Program-made: the position numbers and the translations under genes
Shown here: one piece after another, positions 1,884 to 62,514 of the stretch
Numbering within the stretch: position 1 is the stretch's first letter
Layout of the letters: each line of letters begins with the position of its first letter
The notes under the pieces: generated by a model
Databases searched by the model: none
Told to the model about the DNA's origin: nothing
The model's input: the letters and a program-made list of their open reading frames with translations, nothing else
Assembly: GCA_951406725.2 (NCBI GenBank)
Contig: OX597828.1
Span: 32,178,001 to 32,242,000 of the forward strand
DNA: 64,000 nt
Reading direction: 5' to 3'
Source of the DNA: Octopus vulgaris
Lineage: Eukaryota

Positions 1884-2088
1884 GAAGGCGGAGAGCTGGC
1901 AGAAGCGATAGCACACCGAGCGAAATGCTTAGCGATATTTTCGTCTTAATTTACGTTCTGAGTTCAAATTCCGCCGAGTTCGAATTTGCCTTTCAGCCTA
2001 GCAATTTGCTTTTCCTGCCGGGGGGTCGAGCTAATCGACTTGCCCACTCCTCCAGAATTTCGGGCCTTGTTCCTAGAATCGAAAAGGA
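1884..2088 (+). mobile_element. SINE family A copy (tail type 2)
   Basis: Box A-like tggcagaagcg and box B gagttcaaattcc; 14-bp TSD tattacgtatattc at 1870-1883 and 2089-2102. Confidence 0.9.
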
Positions 2089-7344: not shown

Positions 7345-7723
7345 TTCTTTTCTCTTCTAGGCATAAGGCCCGAACATTGGGGGGGAGGAGTCAGTCGATT
7401 AGATCGACCCCAGTACGCAACGACCCCAAAAAGATGAAAGACAAAGCCGACCTCGGCGGAATTTGAATTCATAAAGACAGAAGAAATACCTATTTCTTTA
7501 TTACCCACAAGGGGCTAAACATAGAGGGGACAAACCAGGACATACATAGGTATTAAGTCGATTACATCGACCCCAGTGCGTAACTGGTACTTAATTTATC
7601 GACCCCGAAAGGATGAAAGGCAAAGTCGACCTCGGGGGAATTTGAACTCACAACGTAGCGTCAGATGAAATACCGCTAATCATTTCGCCAGGTGTGCTAA
7701 CGCTTCTAATAGCTCACCGCCTT
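7345..7723 (-). mobile_element. Dimeric SINE family A (full monomer plus 5'-truncated second monomer)
   Basis: Two tandem cores (gacccc..gatgaaag..cgacctcgg..gaatttgaa); TSD cagtagaacac at 7330-7340 and 7724-7734 encloses both. Confidence 0.88.
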
Positions 7724-8250: not shown

Positions 8251-8508
8251 AAGATGTGATTAATTTAGAGTTGTTTTCCCATTATACACACGCTCAAGAT
8301 CGAATCTTATACTATTTATTATGAAGACAGGTTGGGCCGTATTTCCTTAACATATTAATTCAACGTCACTTTGTTTATATTTCTGAAGGATTTCAGTAAA
8401 GCTATGTTTTTAGAAATGAATTTTGTCGATCATTGAATCTTGTAAAATGAATGCATAATACATTATCCATGCAGTGATTGAGATGCAAGATATATTTGGG
8501 AAAATTTT

Positions 8509-8720
8509 AATGCGACGAGCAGGCAGAAACGTTAGCACGCCGGGCAAAATAGTTAGCTGCATTGTCTTTACGTTCTGAGTTCAAATTCCGCAGAGGTCGA
8601 CTTTGCTCTTCATCCTTTCGGGGTCGATAAATTAAGTACAATTTGCATAGTGGGGTCGAACTAATCGACTGGCCCCCTGCCCCAAAATTTTGATCCTTGT
8701 CCCTACAGCAGAAAATTTTA
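8509..8720 (+). mobile_element. SINE family A (tail type 2)
   Basis: ggcagaaacgttagcacgccgggc..gagttcaaattccgc..catcctttcggggtcgataaattaagtac. Confidence 0.88.
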
Positions 8721-13432: not shown

Positions 13433-14393
13433 CGGTGGTCATATCAAGACAGGTTCTTCAGAAAGTTTAAGATTCGGAAATATTACGGCTAGCAGTAGTG
13501 ATCTATCTAGAATTAAACATCAAAATAAGACACAAACAAAAAAATAATAAGACATATTACACAAGGAATGTTAAAGTTTGATATCACTCTGGGCAAAAGC
13601 AATAAATTTCCTGAATATACATAAAAATATGAAGAAACTAATACAAATTGTCAATAAAATAAAAAAATGTATATAGTGACATTGAACAAAGTATCAATCA
13701 ATAGAATGTGAAATGGAGACAAAAATTAATAACCAAGATTAATTGAACAAAGAAAAAGTGCAAAAAGCAAAATATGTAAAATAAATGTGTAAAAAAATAT
13801 CAATAACGTATATTGAAATGGCTCCAAAGGAAAGGGAGATAAAACTGTTCATATTGATTTCATCGAGGTGAAATCATTAATCATTCTTATATTCTTACGT
13901 CATATCTTGATATTTTTGTTGGCCGTTATTTGTTTATCACGCAAACAGGAATCGTGCTGGCTGGAAAACTTGTCCATATATAGATATACACTTAAGACAC
14001 ATACACACACACATACGTATAAATGGCTATGTATGTTTACAAATATACATACACAAAGCAAACACGTACGCGCACGCACATAGATAATTGTATATGTTTA
14101 TATACATATATACATGTATATAGATATACGCAAGTAAATATATATATGTATATATACATATAGATATATCTATATAATTACACACACATACACGTACATA
14201 TTCATTTAGATATTTATACAAAAGTTGTATACATATATATATACATATATATATATATGTATGTAAGTATGCATATATATGTATGTGTGTGTGTAAATGT
14301 ATACATATATATAAATGTATACATATATATATACATATGTAAATATATATCTGAGCATATATTTGTATATTTGTATATATATATATATATATA

Positions 14394-14685
14394 TACTTAT
14401 TATATCGATTTACTATTGCCGAACCGCTAGATTACGGGGACAAGCACAGGCACACAACCCCCCCCCGCACACACACAGACACACATACACACACGCACGC
14501 ACACACACAGTTATATATATACACAACAAGCTTCTTTCAGCTTCCGTCTACCAAATTCACTCACAAGGCTTTGGTGGAACGGCAGTTATTGTAAAAACAC
14601 TTGCCCAAGGCGCCACACAGTAGGACTGAACCCGGAAGAATGTGGTTGGTAAGCAAGCTACTTACCACAAACCCACTCCTGCGCC
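14394..14685 (-). mobile_element. SINE family B (CORE-like), 3'-truncated, left palindrome arm
   Basis: Reverse complement of ggcgcaggagtggg..ggttcagtcctactgtgtggcgccttgggcaagtgt. Confidence 0.9.
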
Positions 14686-14749
14686 TATATATATATTTGC
14701 ATACATACATATATGCATGGGCTTGTATGTATATATCTATGTATGTATG

Positions 14750-14783
<34 letters not shown>

Positions 14784-14965
14784 AATATTTGCTCATATAT
14801 ATATTTACATATGTATATATATATATATATATACACACATATGTAAATATATATATGAGTAAATATTTGTATATATATATATATATATATATATATTTAC
14901 ATACATTCATATATATATACATACAAGCCCATGCATATATGTATGTATGCAAATATATATATATA

Positions 14966-15248
14966 GGCGCAGGAGTGGGTTTGTGGTAAGTAGCTTGCTT
15001 ACCAACCACTTTCTTCCGGGTTCAGTCCTACTGTGTGGCGCCTTGGGCAAGTGTCTTTTACAATAACTGCCGTTCCACCAAAGCCTTGTGAGTGAATTTG
15101 GTAGACGGAAACTGAAAGAAGCTTGTCGTGTATATATATAACTGTGTGTGTGCGTGCGTGTGTGTATGTGTGTGTGTGGTGGGGTTGTGTGCCTGTGCTT
15201 GTCCCCGTAATCTAGCGGTTCGGCAATAGTATATCGATATAATAAGTA
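14966..15248 (+). mobile_element. SINE family B, 3'-truncated, right palindrome arm
   Basis: tRNA-like head with box B-like ggttcagtcc and CORE-like gccttgggcaagtgtc; shares private variants with 14394-14685. Confidence 0.9.
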
Positions 15249-15483
15249 TATATATATATATATATATATATACAAATATACAAATATATGCTCATATATA
15301 TATTTACATATGTATATATATATTTATATATATATATATATATGTATACATGTACACACACACATACATATATATGCATACATACATACATATATATATA
15401 TGTATATATATATGTATACAACTTTTGTATAAATATCTAAATGAATATGTACGTGTATGTGTGTGTAATTATATAGATATATC

Positions 15484-15514
<31 letters not shown>

Positions 15515-15555
15515 TTACTTGCGTATATCTATATACATGTATATATGTATATAAA

Positions 15556-15909
15556 CATTCTCCCGGGTTCAGTCCTACTGTGTGGCGCCTTGGGCAAGTG
15601 TCTTTTACTATAATTTCCGTTCCACGAAATCCTTGTGAGTGAATTTGGTAGGCGGAAACTGAAAGAAGCTTGTCGTCTATATATATAAGTGTGTGTGTGT
15701 GCGTGTGTGTATGTGTGTGTGTGTATGTGGGGAGTTGTGTGCCTGTGCTTGTCCCCGTAATCTAGCGGTTCGGCAATAGTAAATCGATATAATAAGTACT
15801 GGGCTTACAAAAAATAAGAGCTGGGGGGCGATTTGTTCGACTGAATGCGGTGCTCGAGCATGGCCTAAATCAAATAACTGAATCAAAAAAGAATAGACGA
15901 ATAAAAGAA
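15556..15909 (+). mobile_element. SINE family B, 5'-truncated third copy with intact 3' end
   Basis: Starts mid-head (cattctcccgggttcagtcc) and runs to the A-rich tail gaataaaagaa. Confidence 0.9.
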
Positions 15910-26704: not shown

Positions 26705-28085
26705 ATACTTTGATACTTTGATTCTTTGAAAGGTTTCGGCCATTATTGGCCCAGGCCATATCTAACTTAATAGCACCACCTGGTGAAGTCTTTCAAGTTA
26801 GAATTTGGGCACTATGGCCCACTCAAGTAGAGAGTTATTGTTTACAGAGACATATCCTGGTGTAGGAGGTTTATCCGGGATTTCTTGAAGGAATCTGTCC
26901 AAAGACTTCTTGAACCCTATAGGGTCAGTTTCTGTTTTAATGTGTTTTTGTGTAATGTTAAAGAGAGTTGGACCAATTGAGGTGAAATAATTGTGCCGTA
27001 TTGTTGTTATGAGATGAGAGTGCGATTTTTGTTGTGGACGGATGGCACGGGGCCCAAGCCTTGGATGTACCTTAAAAGTGATGCCAACATCATTTGGGCA
27101 ATGCTGATGGAATATTTTCCACATCATGCAGATGATGTAGCGCTCACGGCGACGTTGGAGAGAATAAAGTTTTAGCTTTTCTAGTCGACCCCAATAGTCG
27201 AGGCCTGTCATGCCATCTATATTTTTTGTGATTGCCCTTTTGAGGTGCTTCAACTTTTATGATATTTTGTTTTGTGTGGGGAGACCACAGTGGATAACAG
27301 TATTCAAAGTGGGGTCGGTCAAAAGTGGAGAGGAGAATGATAATGGTGTGGATATCTCTCGACTGGAAAGTTCTGAGAATCCAGGAACACATTCTGCAGG
27401 CCATGTCAACTTTGGTGTTTATATGAGTGGCCCAGCTTATGTTGTTGTCTACAATTACTCCCAAGTCTCTGATGTTGTTGGATGCCACGAGGGTTTCACC
27501 TGAAGGAAGGGAGTATGGGAGTTCCAGGGCATTCTCTTTTCCAAAGTGGATTAACTTGAATTTATCCTCGTTCAGCAGCATATTGTTCTTTACTGCCCAT
27601 CGGATAACAACCAGTAGATCTGACTGAAGGCATGTCCGGTCACTCGCTTCATTTATGACCTTCTGGTGCTTGACATCATCTACAAAGATTTTTATGTTGC
27701 TGTGCTTGATGATGTCATTAATGTCATTAATGTAGATGTTGAAATGAAGTGGGCCCAGCACAGTGCCTTGCGGAACGCCACTACTGACTTTAGCTGGGCT
27801 TGATTTTACTCCTTCAACTACAACATGTTGAGATCTGTCTGTCAGGAAACACTTGATCCATTTCAGTAACTTTCTAGAGACACCAATGTTAGATAGTTTT
27901 TTCAATAGGATCTTGTGATCAACCCTGTCAAAGGCCTTGCTGAAATCAAGGTAGATGACATCAGTGTTGGAGCCCTCTCCGAAAGCTCTCAAAATGTCAT
28001 CAAAGTGATGCAGGATCTGCGTTAGGCAGTCCCTTCCATTACGGAACCCATGTTGGTTAGAGATCAGCCGTCTGTTGCTTTCCAG
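26705..28085 (-). mobile_element. 5'-truncated CR1/L2-group LINE (RT plus C-terminal region and 3' UTR)
   Basis: [41 protein letters not shown] (cf. YADD), RDLGVIVD; one frameshift near 27240 joins the C-terminal ORF (YWGRLEKLKLYSLQRRRER); tail (caaagtat)n near 26705-26730. Confidence 0.95.
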
Positions 28086-28330
<245 letters not shown>

Positions 28331-33863: not shown

Positions 33864-34161
33864 AGGCGCAATGGCCGAGTGGTCAGGGCAGCGGACTCGC
33901 GGTCGTAGGATCGCAGTTTCGATTTTCAGACCGGGCGTTGTGTGTGTTTATTGAGCGAAAACACCTAAAAGCTCCACGAGGCTCCGACAGGGGGTGGTGA
34001 TCCCAGCTGTACTCTTTCACCACTCTTTCTCTCACTCTTTCCTCTGTTGGCCTGCTCACTTAGTCAGCGAGGTGGCGTCATTCGAAGGCTAAAACAATGC
34101 GAACGGATTGTGACCAGCGATATGTAACTACATCAGATGGACTGGTCGGTCACGTGATCAC

Positions 34162-35379: not shown

Positions 35380-35695
35380 GGAGACGACTCCAATGGCCCA
35401 TTCTTTAGAGCAGTGGACTCGCGATCGGACGATCGCGGTTTCGATTCCCTGGCTGTGCGGTGTGTGTGTTTATTGAGCGAAAACACCTAAAAGCTCCACG
35501 AGGCCCCGGCAAGGGGTGGTGGTGTCCCTTCTTGTACTCTTTCGCACCAACTTTCTCTCACTCTTTCTTCCTGTTTCTTGAGTAACTTTGCGATGGACTG
35601 ACGAACCGTCCAACAAGGGGTGGGATACATGCGACACAGAAACCGGGAAACCGGGCCCATGAGCCTTGCTAGGCTTGAAAAGGACGCATAAAAAA
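35380..35695 (+). mobile_element. SINE family C, tail type 2
   Basis: Same head and core; tail gcgatggactgacgaaccgtcca..gaaaccgggaaaccgggcccatgagcc; TSD gatc(a/t)tagcga(g/a)t at 35367-35379 and 35696-35708. Confidence 0.88.
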
Positions 35696-45442: not shown

Positions 45443-45778
45443 GTACAGCAGGGATCGACACCATCCCCTGCCGGAGCCTCGTGGAGCTTTAAGTGTTTTC
45501 GCTCAATAAACACTCACAACGCCCGGTCTGGGAATCGAAACCGCGATCCTATGACAACTTTCTCTCACTCTTACTTCCTGTTTCTGTTGTACCTTGTATT
45601 TCAAAGGGCCGGCCTTGTCACTCTCTGTGTCACGCTGAATATCCCCGAGAAGTACGTTAAGGGTACACGTGTCTGAGGAGTGCTCAGCCACTTACACGTT
45701 AATTTCACGAGCAGGCTGTTCCATTGATTCGGATCAACCGGAACCCTCGTCGTCGTAACCGACGGAGTGCACCCATCC
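45443..45778 (+). mobile_element. SINE family C, tail type 3, with 5' inversion
   Basis: 45443-45555 is reverse-complement head/core; 45556-45778 is the forward body; TSD acagtagtgt at 45435-45444 and 45779-45788. Confidence 0.88.
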
Positions 45779-47994: not shown

Positions 47995-48430
47995 TCTTTT
48001 CATTTATTCGTTTCAGTCATTTGACTGTGGCCATGCTGGAGCACCGCCGTTAGTCGAGAAAATCGAACGCGAGACTTATTCTTTGGAAGCCTATTACTTA
48101 TTCTATCGGTCTGTTTGGACGAACCGCTAAGTTACGGGGACGTAAACACACCAGCATCCGTTGTCAAGCAATGTTGGTGGGACAAACACAGACACACAAA
48201 CATGCACACATACATATATGTATATATATACATATATGTACATACATATATACGACAGGCTTCTGTCAGTTTCCGTCTACCAAATCCACTCACAACGCAT
48301 TGGTCGGTCCGAGGCTATAGTTGAAATCACTTGCCCAAGGTGCCGCGCAGTGGGACTGGATCCGGAACCATGTGGCTGATTTACCATGTGGTTGGTAAGC
48401 AAGATACTTACCACAGAGCCACTCCTAGCC
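47995..48430 (-). mobile_element. SINE family B, full length
   Basis: cagtcatttgactgtggccatgctggagcaccgcc..gaaccgctaagttacggggacg..cttgcccaaggtgcc..gagccactcct. Confidence 0.92.
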
Positions 48431-53879: not shown

Positions 53880-54067
53880 TAGCGGTATTTCGTCTGCCGT
53901 TACGTTCTGAGTTCAAATTCCGCCGATGTCGACTTTGCCTTTTATACTTTAGGGGTCGATATAATTAAGTACTAGTTACGCACTGGAGTCGATGTAATCG
54001 ACTTAATCCGTTTGTCTGTCCTCGTTTGTCCCCTCTGTGTTTAACCCCTTGTGTGTAATAAAGAAAC
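53880..54067 (+). mobile_element. SINE family A, 5'-truncated, tail type 1
   Basis: tagcggtatttcgtctgccgttacgttctgagttcaaattccgcc..gtcccctctgtgtttaaccccttgtgtgtaataaagaaa. Confidence 0.9.
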
Positions 54068-54925: not shown

Positions 54926-55006
54926 TGTGCGTGCGTATATATATATGTGTGTGTGTATGTGTATATATGTATATATGTATGTATTGTATGTATGTATATG
55001 TATGTA

Positions 55007-55056
<50 letters not shown>

Positions 55057-55078
55057 TATATATAGTATATAATGTGTG

Positions 55079-55138
<60 letters not shown>

Positions 55139-55262
55139 CATTGTATATATAATAGAAATATATTTCCAAGTCTCTCTAAAATAGACTGCGGCAGCGGTAC
55201 TGGATATTAATAGTGTATATATATATATATATGTATGTATTGTATGTATGTATATGTATGTA

Positions 55263-55345
<83 letters not shown>

Positions 55346-55559
55346 CATTGTATATATAATAGAAATATATTTCCAACTCTCTCTAAGATAGACTGCGGCA
55401 GCGGTACTGGATATTAATAGTTATCGCCAAGCTAACATGGCAGTCCAGAAAATTAGGATGAATGCTGCCGTTGATTAGCTGCAAGAGGCCATCGCCTCTA
55501 GCTAGGTAAATGATCCTTCAAATACACGGTAAGTGGCGATCGCTGCCTGGTTCGGCTGA

Positions 55560-55602
55560 TTTACATTGATCAAGGGCAAATAACCTGAAACTAGTCTGTA
55601 GA
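55560..55602 (+). ncRNA. Minimal type I hammerhead motif, decayed copy
   Basis: tttaca-TTGATCA-agggc(aaat)aacct-GAAA-c-ta-GTC-tgtaga; 3-8 mismatch and weakened stem II. Confidence 0.55.
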
Positions 55603-55920
55603 TGCCAGACCAGCAAGGGGGAGCGACTGGCCTCCTCTGTTTGAAGGTTATAATTGAAGCAGGTTCGTGTGTCACATACCTAGCTAGAGGTGATGGCCTC
55701 TTGGAGCTAATCAACGGCAGCATTCGTCCTATTGTTCTGGACTTCCATGTTAGCTTGGTGATAACTACTAATATCCAGTACCGCTGATGTAGTCTCCTTT
55801 AGCGAGACTTAGGCGTATTAATATTTCTATCTTTGAAAACCAGTGGATGTATTCCACTGAATTTAGGAAAATAATCTTTGGTACAGACGGTCAGTAGCGA
55901 CGCTTGCTAGTTTCGGCTGC

Positions 55921-55963
55921 TCTACATTGATAAGGGGTAAATACCCTGAAACTAGTCTGTAGA
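55921..55963 (+). ncRNA. Minimal type I hammerhead ribozyme motif (U3-A8 variant)
   Basis: tctaca-TTGATAA-ggggt(aaat)accct-GAAA-c-ta-GTC-tgtaga: 6-bp stem I, 5-bp stem II with one G-U, palindromic ACTAGT, GUC cleavage triplet. Confidence 0.72.
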
Positions 55964-56154
55964 TGCCAGACCAGCAAGGAGAAACGGCTGACCTCCCCCT
56001 GTACGTAGGTTATAATGGTAGCGCGTTCGTGTGTTACATACCTAGCTACAGGCGATGACCTCTTGGGGCAAATCAACAGCAGAATTCATCATATTTTTCT
56101 GCACTGCCATGTTAGTTTGGCGATAACTTTTAATATTCTATATATATTCGTGTG

Positions 56155-56206
<52 letters not shown>

Positions 56207-58150
56207 TGTATGTATATTCATATACATGTCTACTTGTATTCTTATGTTTTATTTTTATATTTACGCATAAAATTCTGCGATGGAATATGCCTGTCTGGCT
56301 CTCTGTGATGGGGTGTGGGTCCATTATGCATGTTTAACTCTGTGTTGCTGTCTACCTCGATGTAAAATAAGTTGTAAGATATTGTGGGAGAATATTAAAC
56401 GTACATATTGCTTTTCACTTAATTGCTTCGTGTCTTCAGAGAATACTACTTCTTAAAGACCGTTTGATCATACTTGTTTAATAAACCGTCAAGTTTTATA
56501 TATTTTCGCAAACATTAATACCTACACGCTTTCACGCCATAACAATATATTTTGGGTTATTAATGAATAAACACACTAGGATATACAAATGCTAATATAT
56601 ACGTATATGTACATACGTATACTTATATGTATTTATGTGTGCATGTATTTGTGTATTTGTTTGTTTTTGTGTATGTGAGTGTGTGCGTGTGTGTGAGATT
56701 TGATTTTAATCTCAGTGCGAACATCTTTGAAGCTAACGATATTCTTTATTTTGCCTTCTTTACAGTGGACATCTAGCCGTCACAGTCGACTTGTACATCA
56801 CCAAGATACTTGTTGCAATGGTACGCTGGGATACGCGCGAAGTGACCCGCACGTGACATGTTCTGATATGCGGTGTTGTAACACAAGTGAGACTGTAGCT
56901 GTATACCCAATCAATGATGTACTGGGATTTCGTTTTCGCTGTGTGGTGAGTTTTACATTAATCCTAAAAAAATTATTTTTTCCGAAAAATAGCTCAGTAT
57001 ATTTAGAGGTATTTTCCTTCACTATCTAATGATAAATCTAATGATAAACCTTGATAAGTATCTGGGTGATTATTTGTATATGTATGTCTAATCGACATGG
57101 ACTTTTGTGTGATGTAACACACAAAAAACACTTGCATGTAAGCACACATACACATACGCATGTATAGATGACTTATGTGTCTTCTGATTGAAAGTATTGT
57201 CATCCCTACAATAAAATATCAAAACCTGACAAATCGGTACCGATGGAGATTACCAGATCCTTTTCATTAAAACCCAAGTACTGAACTATACTTCAGAATT
57301 AGGTTCGTTTTACACATACAAAATCTTCAAATCTCTATGGCGTTCCAAACCTATATATCTTCCCTACAGCTACATGTGACAATATCTCACACACATATCC
57401 CCAAAGTAAGGAAACAATGCTGATACTAATAATCCTTATAGAAGCAATCAACTCTGTCATTCCAAATTGCTTAACTGCAAACATTTCTTTGTTTCCAAAT
57501 TCAGGACAAAAAGAACGTCCATTTACAAAGAATGACGTAGTCCTGACCTGAGTTTACACCATTTCAAAGATACACTACTAGTTACACACCAAACCAAACA
57601 AAATTTCCTCACAAAAATTGTAATTACCCTACGCCTTACAAATACATACTTCCAACCATACTACTTTACAGGCTTCCAACCCATTTTCATCTTTAACCAA
57701 ATTATAATAAAAATCATTTTACATTGCTTCGACTACCCTCCCGCACACACAAGCACGAAATTAAAACACTTGTTGAAACAAAAGAAACACCAAAATTTAG
57801 CGAAAACGACAGAGTTATATCTCCGACGTCTACTCAATATTTTCTTGTAAAAGATTAATATAATTAAACTTTAAAATTATAGCGCAACCCTTCCGTTTAA
57901 CGTGAGATTGTTTTCTTTTCTACAACATGATATAAAAGAAACAAGTTAAGCAATCTACCCTGATATTCTGCTCCTCCATCTTTATGTACGCATTGCGTAG
58001 TTATATTTACATTTGTAAATAATGGTTGAACACTGCTTCAATGTATCCGCATTATGCATAAAAGCATGTATATGTATACGCGTGTTTGTGTGTGTATGAA
58101 AACGCATGTATCTTCACTGGGTTGTTTTGATGAGTATGATTCCTCTGTAT

Positions 58151-58752: not shown

Positions 58753-59111
58753 AAATATATATGTATATATATATATGGTCAAGAAAAAAAGAAAATGGAG
58801 ATAAATCAATTAATAAGAATATTTAACTGCAAAATACACGTAATCTCTATCAGCTGTTTCGATTCGTACTTTAAAGATTATAATCAGGATAATTCAAGCA
58901 TTTTATGAAGCAGAATCTCGTCAGAGGCAGAAAAAGGATATATCGTTATCCGATTAGGTGTTACGCCTACAGAACTTTACAGAAAACTGTTTATTGTTAT
59001 ACGGATAAATTTGGTATAAAACATTTAGGTGGGTTATTGGGTGTAAATTTAGAGAGGAAGCAAATATATAACAATATACTTTGCATAATAGTTAGAAGGT
59101 ATAGAGAGGCG

Positions 59112-59282
59112 CCATAAACTAAAGAAGTAAATAATAGTATCATCCACTCGATATGTGTAAATGTCAAAGTTTAAGTGGATTTAAGCAATTTATCACAGAG
59201 AAACTTAACAGAAACCCTTCGGTTACATAAAATTTGCTCTCCTATGAAGCGTTATCTTAAGTAGTATATTTTCTTTCCCAAG
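59112..59282 (+). repeat. Direct repeat of 60893-61092
   Basis: ataatagtatca..taaatgtcaaagt.taagtggatttaagcaatttat..cagaaacccttcggttacata..ctatgaagcgttatcttaagtag..ctttcccaag shared by both copies. Confidence 0.9.
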
Positions 59283-59329: not shown

Positions 59330-59946
59330 GTGTGTATGTGTAAGTATGTAAATTATTGTGTCTTCCTTTGTCCCCTACTACTACTTTACAACCGCTGCTG
59401 GTGTGTTTACGATCTTGCAACTTAGCTGTTCGGCAAAATAGACATTTATAAATAAGTATCGGTCTTCTGAAAATTATTTTAAGGCAATGCCCCAGCATGG
59501 CCGCAGGATACTGACTGAAAGAAGTAAAATATAGAAGATAAAAATTATATATATATACATACAGGCACAGGAGTGGATGCGTGGTAAGTAGCCTGCTAAC
59601 CAACCACATTGTTCCGGGTTCAGTCCCACTGCGTGGCATCTTCTGCTATGGCCCCGGGCTGACCAATGCCTTGTGAGTGGATTTGGTAGACGGAAACTGA
59701 AAGAAGCCTGTCGTATATATGTATATATATATGTGTGTGTATGTGTGTGTGTTGGTGTTTGTCCCCCCAACATCGCTTGACCACCGATGCTGGTGTGTTT
59801 ACGTCCCCGTCACTTAGCGGTTCGGCAAAAGGGACTGATAGAATAAGTACTGGGCTTACAAAGAATAAGTCCCGGGGCCGAATTGCTCGACTAAAGGCGG
59901 TGCTCCAGCAGTCAAATGACTGAAATAAGTGAAAGAGAGAGAGTAA
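59330..59946 (+). mobile_element. Old SINE B 3' half (59330-59543) followed by a full-length SINE B (59564-59946)
   Basis: Two successive 3' modules gctggtgtgtttacg..cttagc.gttcggcaaaa; the second copy has head ggcacaggagtgg..ggttcagtcccactgcgtggca. Confidence 0.9.
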
Positions 59947-60429: not shown

Positions 60430-61807
60430 TTACTTTCACAATTTAGAAATTACAAAAAGAAACAAACCAATGGTAATAAATGTCGTCATACACATTTTTT
60501 TAGCATAAACGACTGGAAATTGACATCCACGTGCAATGAGCATTTGAAAATCTGAAGGAAATGTTGTATGTTTGTGTGGTTGATACGTCAGCATGTCATG
60601 ACTCGCTTCGATACTGTCTATAGAAACTACACATCCCAATACATTAACGGGTAAAAGAAAGTATCAGAAATTGCTTAGCCATTTGTCATTTATTCTGAAA
60701 CATAATTTTTTGTTTGTTTTTAATGTTTAATCTTAGTAGCATGTGTGCAAAATACATCAACGTCTCTATCAGAATCTACAGAACATTTGAATTGAATTAT
60801 AAGAAGATGTAAATTCCTACATAATCTTCTACTGGATGCGATGTGGAATAGTTTAGAAATATATATCATGTAAAACCGATGTCACACAGGTACCATATAA
60901 CAAAGATACTGATAATAGTATCACCCAATAGGTACGAATAAATGTCAAAGTGTAAGTGGATTTAAGCAATTTATTATGGAGAAATATCACAGAAACCCTT
61001 CGGTTACATAGAATTTGTCTTGTGAAATGTTCGTTCGGGATTTCTGCTCTGCTATGAAGCGTTATCTTAAGTAGAGTATTTACTTTCCCAAGAATCTTAG
61101 CTTTATTCGTGAAATCACAATTTACTTCAAATGCATTATGCTTGAAGTAATCTTCATTTCACCAAAACCTAATCCAACTAGTTCAGTAGGTTATTTCAAT
61201 TTCCAATATCTGCTATCTTAGAAGACCCATTCTGATGATTAAAGCGTTTTATCAGTCCGTAAATGAATTCCGGGAAAATTACATTATGCAAACAATAAAT
61301 ATTATGAAACATATCTGGATAAGTGTTAGACATTCATATATAAATGGAGTTTTAGAATCAAATATTACCAAAAGTTGTTAAGACAAGTAGGATAGCAAAC
61401 GAAGTTGTCGCAGCAATATATTGGAAATTAGCACAAGAAAATTTGTTTGAATTTATTGGTGCATGTGATATTCACAACATATTGTATACTGAGAAAGAAA
61501 TCAACTATAAATATCTTAATGACATAACTAAACCAGTTTGAGTCTGCTTCGGATGGTAATAGGCGACGCGTGCACACGAATAAACTCACCTAAATTTCTT
61601 ACAAGATAACTCAAAGCATAAAAGTTTAAAATATCCAAAATGGTCGAGTTGAATCGTAATGGAGAAGGAATAGTAGTTAGAAAGAAGTGGTCGAAGCAGT
61701 CGAAACCTGATGCCGTCATGGATAAACCAAAGAGAATCATTGTTTATATATTGTGTACGTCAGAATTTCTTCTTGCCTTAAATAAAATGAATGCACATTA
61801 CAAATAA
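60430..61807 (+). pseudogene. Tentative decayed Cys-loop (nAChR-like/chemotactile-like) receptor
   Basis: Colinear fragments across frames: NDWKLT, SEGNVVCLCG*YVSMS*, FDT, KPFGYI, SFGISALL*SVIL, FPKN..ITIYFKCIM, KW..AVMDK..IIVYIL; the spacing requires large deletions. Confidence 0.35.
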
Positions 61808-61885: not shown

Positions 61886-62078
61886 TATTCTTTTCTACTC
61901 TACGCACAACTCCCGAAAGATTGGGCGGCGTGAGGCCAGTCGATTAGATCGACCCCAGTACGCAACTGGTACTTAAGTTATCGACACCGAAAGGAGTTTG
62001 AACTCAGAACGTAAATACAAACAAAATGCCGCTAAGCATTTCACTCGGAGGCTATAGTTTCTGCCAGCTTGCCGCCTT
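61886..62078 (-). mobile_element. SINE family A (tail type 2), internally deleted
   Basis: cagtcgattagatcgaccccagtacgcaactggtac..tttgaactcagaacgta..ttctgccagcttgccgcctt; degenerate TSD agtttaactca / agtttatctca. Confidence 0.88.
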
Positions 62079-62514
62079 AGAGTTTATCTCAATTGTCATT
62101 GACAATATTCGAGCGTGACAAAGGAATACGGCGTTAGAGTAATATCTACATGCGATCATCTATCAGTTGCATATCGATGGTTTTTATAGCGTTTCACCTG
62201 CCAATTATGAACGAACACTGCAGAGTTAAATTTTTTTTATTTGTGGATATGTATATATACATATATTTATATACTTGTCGATATGCGTTTATCTCCTGAT
62301 TATGTTTCCTTTCTGTAACTATATACATACACACACACTCACACACACACATATATATATATATATACATATATATGAGTATGCATATGTGTGTGAGTGC
62401 TTGTGTGTGTTTGTGTGTGAGAGATTATGTGCACGTGTATGTACGTATATATTATTCTAGTATATCAAACACATAAATAGATATGCATAGATAGAGAGAT
62501 AAGTATAGACGGTG

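What the first reader, a model, noticed from the sequence alone, without database searches (positions are those of the whole stretch)
55150..56140. Retrozyme/Penelope-like hammerhead array with a 361-nt unit and an antisense arm
Seen: two minimal type I HHR motifs in tandem units, with GUC sites ending at 55596 and 55957 (361 nt apart). They are preceded by a ~150-bp inverted copy of the unit's 3' part, joined through a tagg microhomology. There is no ORF. Known: partial-tandem plus inverted termini and minimal HHRs with a palindromic loop III are hallmarks of Penelope-like elements, and metazoan non-LTR retrozymes are tandem HHR units of a few hundred nt processed into circular RNA. Inference: this belongs to a non-coding, self-cleaving retroelement family that could release ~361-nt monomers or circles through dimeric HHR pairing at ACUAGU. 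The inverted arm would fold a read-through transcript into a long hairpin with HHR1 in its loop.
Basis: partly seen in the sequence, partly recalled or inferred. Interest (0 to 1): 0.8.

Follow-up and report, generated by a model that had tools for sequence, protein, structure and literature searches.

The report
Old Penelope-mobilised hammerhead retrozyme insertion
This is a decayed copy of a many-copy, non-coding animal repeat whose 361-base unit carries a self-cutting hammerhead RNA motif; its kind is known, but it carries the insertion scars of Penelope-like retrotransposons, which points to those elements as the machinery that copies such repeats.

Summary
There are two type I hammerhead motifs (GUC ending at 55596 and 55957) in 1.76 head-to-tail 361-bp units, preceded by a 150-bp inverted, 5'-truncated copy, with no credible ORF. 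Corrections: the ribozyme has canonical, not minimal, geometry (6-bp helix I, 4-bp helix II, CAAAUA/UAAAUA loop 2). Its core is U3-A8, and copy 1 is damaged (U3.C8). The junction overlap is 6 nt, and the units are only 82% identical. Logan contigs from three organisms show a dispersed, many-copy family. Many copies end at this copy's 3' end (56136), 179 nt past the cut site, and run into TA-rich DNA. The head-to-head inversion, overlapping junction, tail-like extension on one arm and (TA)n target match the published Penelope-like element (PLE) insertion pattern, without the ORF. Best reading: an old copy of a non-autonomous, PLE-mobilised element of the non-LTR retrozyme kind. The antisense arm is an integration by-product. 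Cleavage, circular RNA and the partner PLE are untested. Verdict: new member of a known kind, interest 0.36.

The parts
55132..55218 (-). Duplicate of the outer end of the inverted arm, part of a roughly 250-bp local tandem duplication with the adjoining microsatellite. It is younger than the insertion, or two haplotypes placed in tandem; not part of the original insert.
   Evidence: 84/86 identical to 55339-55425; alignment with the microsatellite block
55359..55508 (-). Inverted, 5'-truncated copy of the unit (equivalent to unit 1 55677-55830), head-to-head with the direct copies
55359..55410 (-). Tail-like extension of the inverted arm beyond the family's main 3' end (56 nt in unit 1 coordinates, 55775-55830)
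   Evidence: 55411 = 55774 = 56136 in the alignments; loose ends at 55411; length. Calling it a PLE tail is inference.
55498..55508 (.). Inversion junction: 8-nt palindrome CTAGCTAG (55498-55505) and 6-nt overlap TAGGTA (55503-55508) shared by the arm and unit 1
   Evidence: bridged by X2 record 17 (55464-55612, 2 differences)
55503..55863 (+). Unit 1, one full 361-bp period
55554..55606 (+). HHR1, type I, damaged. Closing GGC 55554; internal loop UGA 55557 / U 55603; helix I 55560-65 with 55597-602; core UUGAUCA 55566-72 (U3.C8); helix II 55573-76 with 55583-86 (one pair broken); loop 2 CAAAUA; GAA; ACUAGU 55590-95; predicted cut after C55596
   Evidence: most laid contigs have C at 55559 and 55583
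55597..55957 (+). Predicted 361-nt cut-to-cut monomer; its two ends pair into a long rod
   Evidence: -118.5 kcal/mol, z -3.9 against 100 dinucleotide shuffles; existence as RNA not shown
55864..56136 (+). Unit 2, partial (273 bp), ending at the family's recurrent 3' terminus
55915..55967 (+). HHR2, type I, near intact. Internal loop UGC 55918 / U 55964; helix I UCUACA/UGUAGA; core UUGAUAA 55927-33 (U3-A8); helix II GGGG/CCCU (G.U at 10.1-11.1); loop 2 UAAAUA (family majority C at 55938); ACUAGU 55951-56; predicted cut after C55957
55870..56017 (+). Imperfect extension of stem I, about 60 nt per arm, carrying HHR2 at its tip (same arrangement for HHR1 at 55509-55655)
   Evidence: z -2.0 and -2.3; an 11-bp complementary pair of segments seen in other copies (tables 5c and 7)
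56137..56203 (.). TA-rich / (TA)n right flank; the left flank (up to 55358) is also TA/TG microsatellite

Best explanation
The locus is one old insertion of a non-autonomous, many-copy element: an ORF-less 361-nt unit with a canonical-type I hammerhead (U3-A8 core), of the non-LTR retrozyme kind, copied in trans by a Penelope-like element's RT and GIY-YIG endonuclease. Shown: the anatomy, the dispersed family, the recurrent 3' end and the TA-rich targets. Inferred steps: (1) tandem source copies are transcribed into multimers that can self-cleave, probably as dimers through ACUAGU, and may be circularised. (2) A PLE protein cuts AT-rich DNA and starts reverse transcription inside the RNA, 179 nt past the cut site. 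(3) The cDNA crossed two cut sites and covered 1.76 units, so the template was a circle or an uncleaved multimer, not a cut linear monomer. (4) A second cDNA, primed from the other DNA strand at a start about 56 nt further along (or a snap-back of the first), made the inverted arm, joined at TAGGTA. (5) The three segments then decayed independently, damaging HHR1. The locus is probably inert.
For: The motif is far beyond chance. Family: 3933, 1794 and 2821 contigs laid from DNA runs of organisms A, B and C at 80% likeness, most of them 90-99% or less alike. Recurrent 3' end: listed loose ends at 55411 (equivalent to 56136) in 46 X1, 35 plus 22 (at 55412) X2 and 45 X3 contigs, with heterogeneous AT-rich flanks (agreement about 0.5). 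Contigs of other copies form an overlapping chain through terminus, linker and hammerhead with no inserted sequence (X1 records 2, 6, 7; X2 20, 22, 23; X3 28, 30, 31), and only 0.01 of laid DNA runs on into unlike sequence. One master: of the 35 listed majority-letter rows that have a second local copy, 29 match it, and 98 three-way columns have 6, 10 and 2 private changes. At 55679 all three local segments share a letter that the family majority lacks, which fits one source molecule. The architecture equals Pen2a_Av minus the ORF (PMC3846280 passages) and Fig. 2 of PMC8557442. Internal RT start, extension of both strands, AT-rich targets and the tail were shown in vitro for PAc (PMC11167929). 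Canonical geometry and the tertiary-contact nucleotides of the Schistosoma motif are present (PMC4209133, PMC2632901), and canonical motifs in 150-450-bp ORF-less units define retrozymes (PMC7229834).
Against: No autonomous PLE sharing these ends was found: no genome is held, and the window's only RT fragment is 27 kb away and looks LINE-like (motif reading recalled). No laid contig spans a whole unit or a dimer, so long arrays are not shown. The tail is 56 nt against the published 30-40 nt and is seen clearly only at this locus. No informative target-site duplication can be read in the TA flanks. Six of 35 rows do not match another local copy, and only 40 of 129 rows were shown. The family's letters at core positions 3 and 8 are not directly listed. 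Only 1 of 9 predicted retrozyme dimers cleaved in the preprint's test.
Confidence: 0.8

Rival explanations
1. Ordinary pseudo-LTR debris of an autonomous PLE. The two units are the pLTRs of an element that lost its ORF by deletion, and the many genomic relatives are 5'-truncated PLE ends rather than an independently spreading short unit.
For: All PLE insertion hallmarks are present. Most PLE copies are 5'-truncated (PMC8557442 passages). In PAc and Pen2a the pLTR overlaps the ORF start, and here an ATG lies 5 nt after each cut site. Short contigs could hide rare ORF-bearing copies.
Against: The 55775-55863 linker is among the deeply covered parts in all three DNA runs and runs straight into the next hammerhead arm in other copies. 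The 61-aa frame finds only two unnamed singletons of 64 and 59 aa and no long protein among 1.84 billion representatives, and it is broken in unit 2. PLE hammerheads are mostly minimal, whereas this one is canonical (PMC4209133, PMC7229834).
Confidence: 0.11
2. A DNA-level product: local tandem duplication plus fold-back inversion of a dispersed repeat in microsatellite-rich DNA, with a vestigial ribozyme and no role for PLE enzymes in the arrangement.
For: The window shows such events elsewhere: a 98% palindrome at 14094-15558 and the 84/86 duplication beside the arm. The junction has a palindrome and a microhomology.
Against: The right end falls exactly on the family's recurrent terminus. 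All three segments are similarly diverged. The order inverted-direct-direct with an extension on one arm is the published PLE pattern.
Confidence: 0.06
3. A host-used locus: read-through transcription makes a 150-bp hairpin for small RNAs, or a ribozyme-processed regulatory RNA kept by selection.
For: The hairpin folds very stably and leaves both hammerhead folds intact (0.1 kcal/mol or less to force them). The same junction occurs in organism B with 2 differences in 149 nt. The longest identical run between units (35 nt) covers the cut site (P = 0.027).
Against: The arm differs from its partner by 12-14% and HHR1's core pair is broken. Compensation between the stem arms is not significant (P = 0.18). 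The P of 0.027 is one of several tests. Organism B may be a very close relative or the same species under another label.
Confidence: 0.03

Closest known systems
Metazoan non-LTR retrozymes (Cervera & de la Pena 2020, PMC7229834, parts 2-4 of 6 read; Li, Clavereau & Pollet 2026, 10.64898/2026.07.22.740005, parts 1-3 of 5 read)
   Same: ORF-less tandem unit of a few hundred nt (mussel 350-390 bp), one canonical type I hammerhead per unit, short palindromic helix III, self-paired monomer, GC under 50%, many copies.
   Different: U3-A8 core and a non-G-C pair at 10.1-11.1; only 1.76 decayed units here; an inverted arm and tail-like extension, not described for retrozymes in the parts read; RNA, cleavage and circles not shown.
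EN+ Penelope-like element insertions (Arkhipova et al. 2013, PMC3846280, passages; Craig et al. 2021, PMC8557442, passages; Frangieh et al. 2024, PMC11167929, parts 1-2 of 4)
   Same: Two direct repeats plus an adjacent, overlapping, 5'-truncated inverted copy; palindrome at the junction; extension on one end only; AT/(TA)n target; 3' end downstream of the hammerhead.
   Different: No RT/GIY-YIG ORF; extension 56 nt rather than 30-40 nt; canonical rather than minimal hammerhead. A hammerhead together with (TA)n preference would point to a Neptune-type rather than a Naiad partner (inference from PMC8557442 passages; untested).
Schistosoma mansoni hammerheads: the canonical Sm-alpha motif (PMC2632901, passages) and the U3-A8 variant of Cercyon PLEs (PMC4209133, parts 1-2 of 4 and part of the supplement)
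   Same: Loop 2 CAAAUA with 3' A, internal loop in helix I with 5' U and last C, as in the crystallised motif; U3-A8 covariation as in about 1,300 Schistosoma hits.
   Different: The published U3-A8 motifs were described with the minimal PLE hammerheads; here U3-A8 sits in a canonical, tertiary-contact frame. The internal loop is smaller (U:UGC against UCCA:GUAC).

Membership tests
Type I hammerhead ribozyme | Three helices around the conserved core, open at helix I, with an NUH cut site | tested here: met
   Descriptor scan: 2 hits, controls mean 0.025; anatomy
Type I hammerhead ribozyme | Watson-Crick pair at positions 3 and 8 (C-G canonical; U-A variant in PMC4209133) | tested here: inconclusive
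   HHR2 U3-A8 met; HHR1 U3.C8 not met. No change is listed at 55927 or 55932 among 40 of 129 rows shown, which is suggestive only.
Type I hammerhead ribozyme | Match to an Rfam hammerhead model | tested here: not met
   0 matches at gathering score in the window; no hammerhead among 30 matches up to E 10 in 55000-56300
Type I hammerhead ribozyme | Self-cleavage | not testable with these tools
   Needs in vitro assay
Minimal PLE-type hammerhead (PMC4209133) | Long helix II (7-8 bp in S. mansoni), short helix I, extra nucleotide before G10.1-C11.1, no loop 1-loop 2 signature | tested here: not met
   Helix II 4 bp, helix I 6 bp, U before GAA, CAAAUA/UAAAUA loop and U:UGC internal loop
Non-LTR retrozyme | ORF-less tandem units of about 150-450 bp, one type I hammerhead each | tested here: met
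   361-bp period, 1.76 units, no Pfam hit or long homologue
Non-LTR retrozyme | Two consecutive units with complete hammerheads ('active' criterion of the 2026 preprint) | tested here: not met
   HHR1 core pair and one helix II pair are broken at this locus; other loci not visible
Non-LTR retrozyme | Multi-copy family in the genome | tested here: met
   Thousands of divergent contigs laid in DNA runs of three organisms
Non-LTR retrozyme | Expressed as linear and circular monomer RNA | not testable with these tools
   Only contigs are held; they cannot show ends, strand or circles
PLE-mobilised insertion | Partial tandem with adjacent inverted 5'-truncated copy | tested here: met
PLE-mobilised insertion | 30-40-bp tail on one end | tested here: inconclusive
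   One-sided extension present but 56 nt; recurrence of this second end not established
PLE-mobilised insertion | AT-rich / (TA)n targets and a 3' end internal to the RNA | tested here: met
   Loose ends at 55411-12 into AT-rich flanks in three runs; 179 nt past the cut site
Autonomous PLE | RT plus GIY-YIG ORF between the repeats | tested here: not met
   Period is 361 bp; no Pfam hit in or near the element among 103 frames scanned
Autonomous PLE | A full-length PLE elsewhere sharing the terminal sequence | not testable with these tools
   No genome held

The most novel reading that the evidence does not exclude
A large, still-expressed retrozyme family with a canonical hammerhead carrying a U3-A8 core, invisible to Rfam and to CUGANGA descriptors. 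It makes circular RNA that a TA-targeting PLE reverse-transcribes by internal initiation and rolling past the unit length, so that its insertions record the PLE mechanism directly (two start sites, two primed strands). Retrozyme censuses would then be missing whole families, and this family would supply thousands of natural insertions for working out the template and the partner enzyme.
Probability: 0.3. Interest if true: 0.62.

Novelty: new member of a known kind. Interest (0 to 1): 0.36.

Why it matters
Which enzyme mobilises animal retrozymes, and from what template, is argued in the papers read from co-occurrence, shared hammerheads and pLTR phylogeny (PMC7229834; 10.64898/2026.07.22.740005). 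This locus adds structural evidence: an ORF-less retrozyme-type unit carrying the PLE integration pattern, with a 3' end inside the cut-to-cut monomer, which argues against a cut linear monomer as the template. The U3-A8 canonical core also shows how such families escape Rfam. The locus itself is a decayed repeat copy, and each of its features has precedent separately.

Tried and rejected
No whole genome was available, so copy counts and a partner search could not be run. Rfam gave nothing relevant; ARAGORN found no tRNA gene and a Pol III box pattern scan (patterns recalled) printed no match. Exact motif scans of metagenome, viral and prokaryote contigs gave 0 each. Earlier scan notes by sequence, genome, relatives and a long word list gave nothing. 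Expression: no RNA holder listed. The guessed-RNA run X19 laid 264 contigs, but it may contain DNA, no silent control stretch was laid and the junction bin was empty, so it is not used either way. Summed contig depth is not a copy number: the terminal-to-junction ratios (about 14,100, 5,400 and 4,500) are taken only as 'at least hundreds'. Compensatory change between stem arms was suspected by eye but is not significant (P = 0.18; the monomer pairing P = 0.042 is one-sided and one of several tests). The 61-aa frame was rejected as a gene: its two hits are unnamed singletons starting at the same ATG, and about 52% protein identity is what roughly 80% DNA identity gives without selection (arithmetic is my inference). 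An assembly artefact for the inverted arm was rejected (12-14% divergence; junction bridged in X2). The isolated 59-nt hammerheads do not fold better than shuffles (z -0.46 and -1.51). Literature: 'octopus' + 'hammerhead ribozyme' and 'retrozyme' + 'cephalopod' listed no description of such a family; 'U3-A8' occurred only in PMC4209133. These host terms rest on a recalled resemblance of the window's repeats, not on a test. Lunse et al. (PMC5785218) was not available, the PMC7229834 supplement could not be read, and Repbase and Dfam were not searchable; any of them may already hold this variant or family.

Full report
Setting. The window is about 34% GC and dense in (TA)n and (CA)n runs. Of 103 reading frames scanned (chosen by length and complexity out of 428 of 55 aa or more), one has a Pfam hit above cut-off: an RT fragment at 27147-28205 (-), 27 kb from the finding. 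It reads as animal non-coding DNA. The repeats resemble octopus genomes as I recall them, which I did not test. No genome is held.

Observation. The two GUC sites end at 55596 and 55957. A structural descriptor found only these two motifs on either strand, against a mean of 0.025 in 40 Markov controls. The direct part runs 55503-56136 (1.76 periods of 361 bp; 222/271 identical). The inverted arm 55359-55508 copies unit positions 55677-55830 and overlaps unit 1 by TAGGTA beside the palindrome CTAGCTAG. The piece at 55132-55218 is a younger duplicate of the arm's end (84/86). Rfam reports no hammerhead at either threshold.

The ribozyme. HHR2 has a 6-bp helix I closed by a U:UGC internal loop and three G-C pairs, core UUGAUAA, a 4-bp helix II with loop UAAAUA, GAA, the palindrome ACUAGU and C17. 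PMC4209133 (parts 1-2 of 4 read) defines canonical metazoan motifs by a 6-bp helix I, a 4-bp helix II and a short palindromic helix III, and minimal PLE motifs by a longer helix II, a shorter helix I and an extra base before G10.1-C11.1; this motif is the former. PMC2632901 (passages) gives the Schistosoma loop 2 as CAAAUA, with its 3' A pairing to the 5' U of internal loop 1 and a last C protruding. HHR1 has CAAAUA, most laid contigs have C at 55938 and 55559, and the U is present in both copies. The core is U3-A8, a covariation reported for about 1,300 Schistosoma hits in PMC4209133, and 10.1-11.1 is A-U or G.U rather than G-C. HHR1 has U3.C8, a broken helix II pair and A for the loop C. Stem I extends about 60 nt on each side (z -2.3 and -2.0) and the cut-to-cut monomer folds at z -3.9. 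Letters from other copies show the distal stem as a perfect 11-bp pair, CCTTCGAACAG with CTGTTCGAAGG (read by eye, tables 5c and 7, the first C of the latter taken from the window). Against this, the isolated 59-nt motifs are not more stable than shuffles, and no cleavage could be tested.

The family. One search listed 24 runs from 13 studies and four coded organisms; I laid four. At 80% likeness, 3933 (X1, organism A), 1794 (X2, B) and 2821 (X3, C) contigs lay on the 801-bp stretch, most less than 99% alike. The bin just inside the inversion junction has depth 52, 8.5 and 154, while unit bins reach 10^4 to 7x10^5. This is not a copy number, but it implies at least hundreds of copies and a locus-specific junction. 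The largest listed loose ends lie at 55411 (46 contigs in X1, 35 plus 22 at 55412 in X2, 45 in X3; 24 of 790 rows shown) and lead into varied AT-rich sequence ending in TA repeats. Position 55411 equals 55774 and 56136, so this copy's right end is a recurrent family terminus, 179 nt downstream of the cut site, and the arm runs 56 nt beyond it. Divergent contigs chain across terminus, linker and hammerhead without an insert (X1 records 2, 6, 7; X2 20, 22, 23; X3 28, 30, 31), although none spans a whole unit and only 32 of 9038 pieces were shown. Of 40 listed majority-letter rows, 35 have a second local copy and 29 of these match it; 98 three-way columns hold 6, 10 and 2 private changes. The segments therefore decayed separately from one master. 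X2 record 17 bridges the junction with 2 differences in 149 nt, so the inversion is real DNA and is shared with organism B.

Coding. An ATG 5 nt after the cut opens 61 codons in unit 1 and is frameshifted in unit 2. Among 1.84 billion representatives it finds two unnamed singletons of 64 and 59 aa from Logan contigs, starting at the same place. I read them as gene calls on other copies of the repeat.

Mechanism. Pen2a_Av has two direct pLTRs, an overlapping shorter inverted pLTR, a tail on one end and junction palindromes (PMC3846280, passages). PMC8557442 (passages) generalises this and notes (TA)n targeting. PMC11167929 (parts 1-2 of 4) shows a PLE protein cutting AT-rich DNA, extending both strands and starting inside the RNA at two sites that bound the tail, using uncleaved RNA. 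The locus fits this point for point without an ORF. Because the insert crosses two cut sites and does not end at one, its template was a circle or an uncleaved multimer (inference). The arm is then a second cDNA or a snap-back product. PMC7229834 (parts 2-4 of 6) supplies the retrozyme cycle, and 10.64898/2026.07.22.740005 (parts 1-3 of 5; supplements closed) argues that retrozymes are non-autonomous PLE derivatives while reporting cleavage for only 1 of 9 tested dimers.

Novelty. Searches listed no description of this family or of U3-A8 in a canonical retrozyme motif. Lunse et al. (title seen only in a reference list), the PMC7229834 supplement and repeat databases were out of reach. PMC6765202, PMC6155905 and PMC8967140 were seen as passages only. 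Earlier scan notes list 76 hammerhead/retrozyme findings in at least 32 genomes (unchecked), so the kind is common.

Verdict. It works like a non-LTR retrozyme moved by PLE enzymes (0.8). It is not an autonomous PLE, and this copy fails the two-intact-hammerheads criterion. New member of a known kind; interest 0.36.

Noticed in passing
window 14094-15558: A near-perfect palindrome: 14094-14810 against 15558-14841, 691/703 aligned bases identical, made of a dispersed repeat and microsatellites, followed by a further partial copy at 15585-15792. Either a young fold-back duplication or an assembly artefact.
   Followed up: partly
window 27147-28205 (-): Reverse transcriptase fragment (Pfam RVT_1, E 2.3e-23) starting in a microsatellite; its motifs look LINE-like rather than Penelope-like (recalled). 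No link to the finding seen.
   Followed up: partly
window 54960-55425: Local tandem duplication of microsatellite plus the outer end of the inverted arm, 84/86 identical in the complex part; it could also be two haplotypes assembled in tandem.
   Followed up: partly
window 55445 and 55732 (loose ends): Several contigs in X1, X2, X3 and X19 leave the unit at these places into AT-rich unrelated sequence, hinting at other elements or subfamilies that share only part of the 3' region.
   Followed up: no
window 1888-2086, 7347-7702, 8502-8630, 53880-53955, 61891-62085: Several 72-86% alike fragments of another dispersed repeat family, SINE-like by recall; ARAGORN found no tRNA gene.
   Followed up: no
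window 33869-34048, 35391-35575, 45459-45544; 48011-48161, 59783-59925; 59107-59236, 60888-61017: Further dispersed repeat pairs at 76-91% identity, not classified.
   Followed up: no
window 55841-55859: A perfect 7-bp hairpin in the linker that occurs only between units, just beyond the end of the tail-like extension.
   Followed up: no
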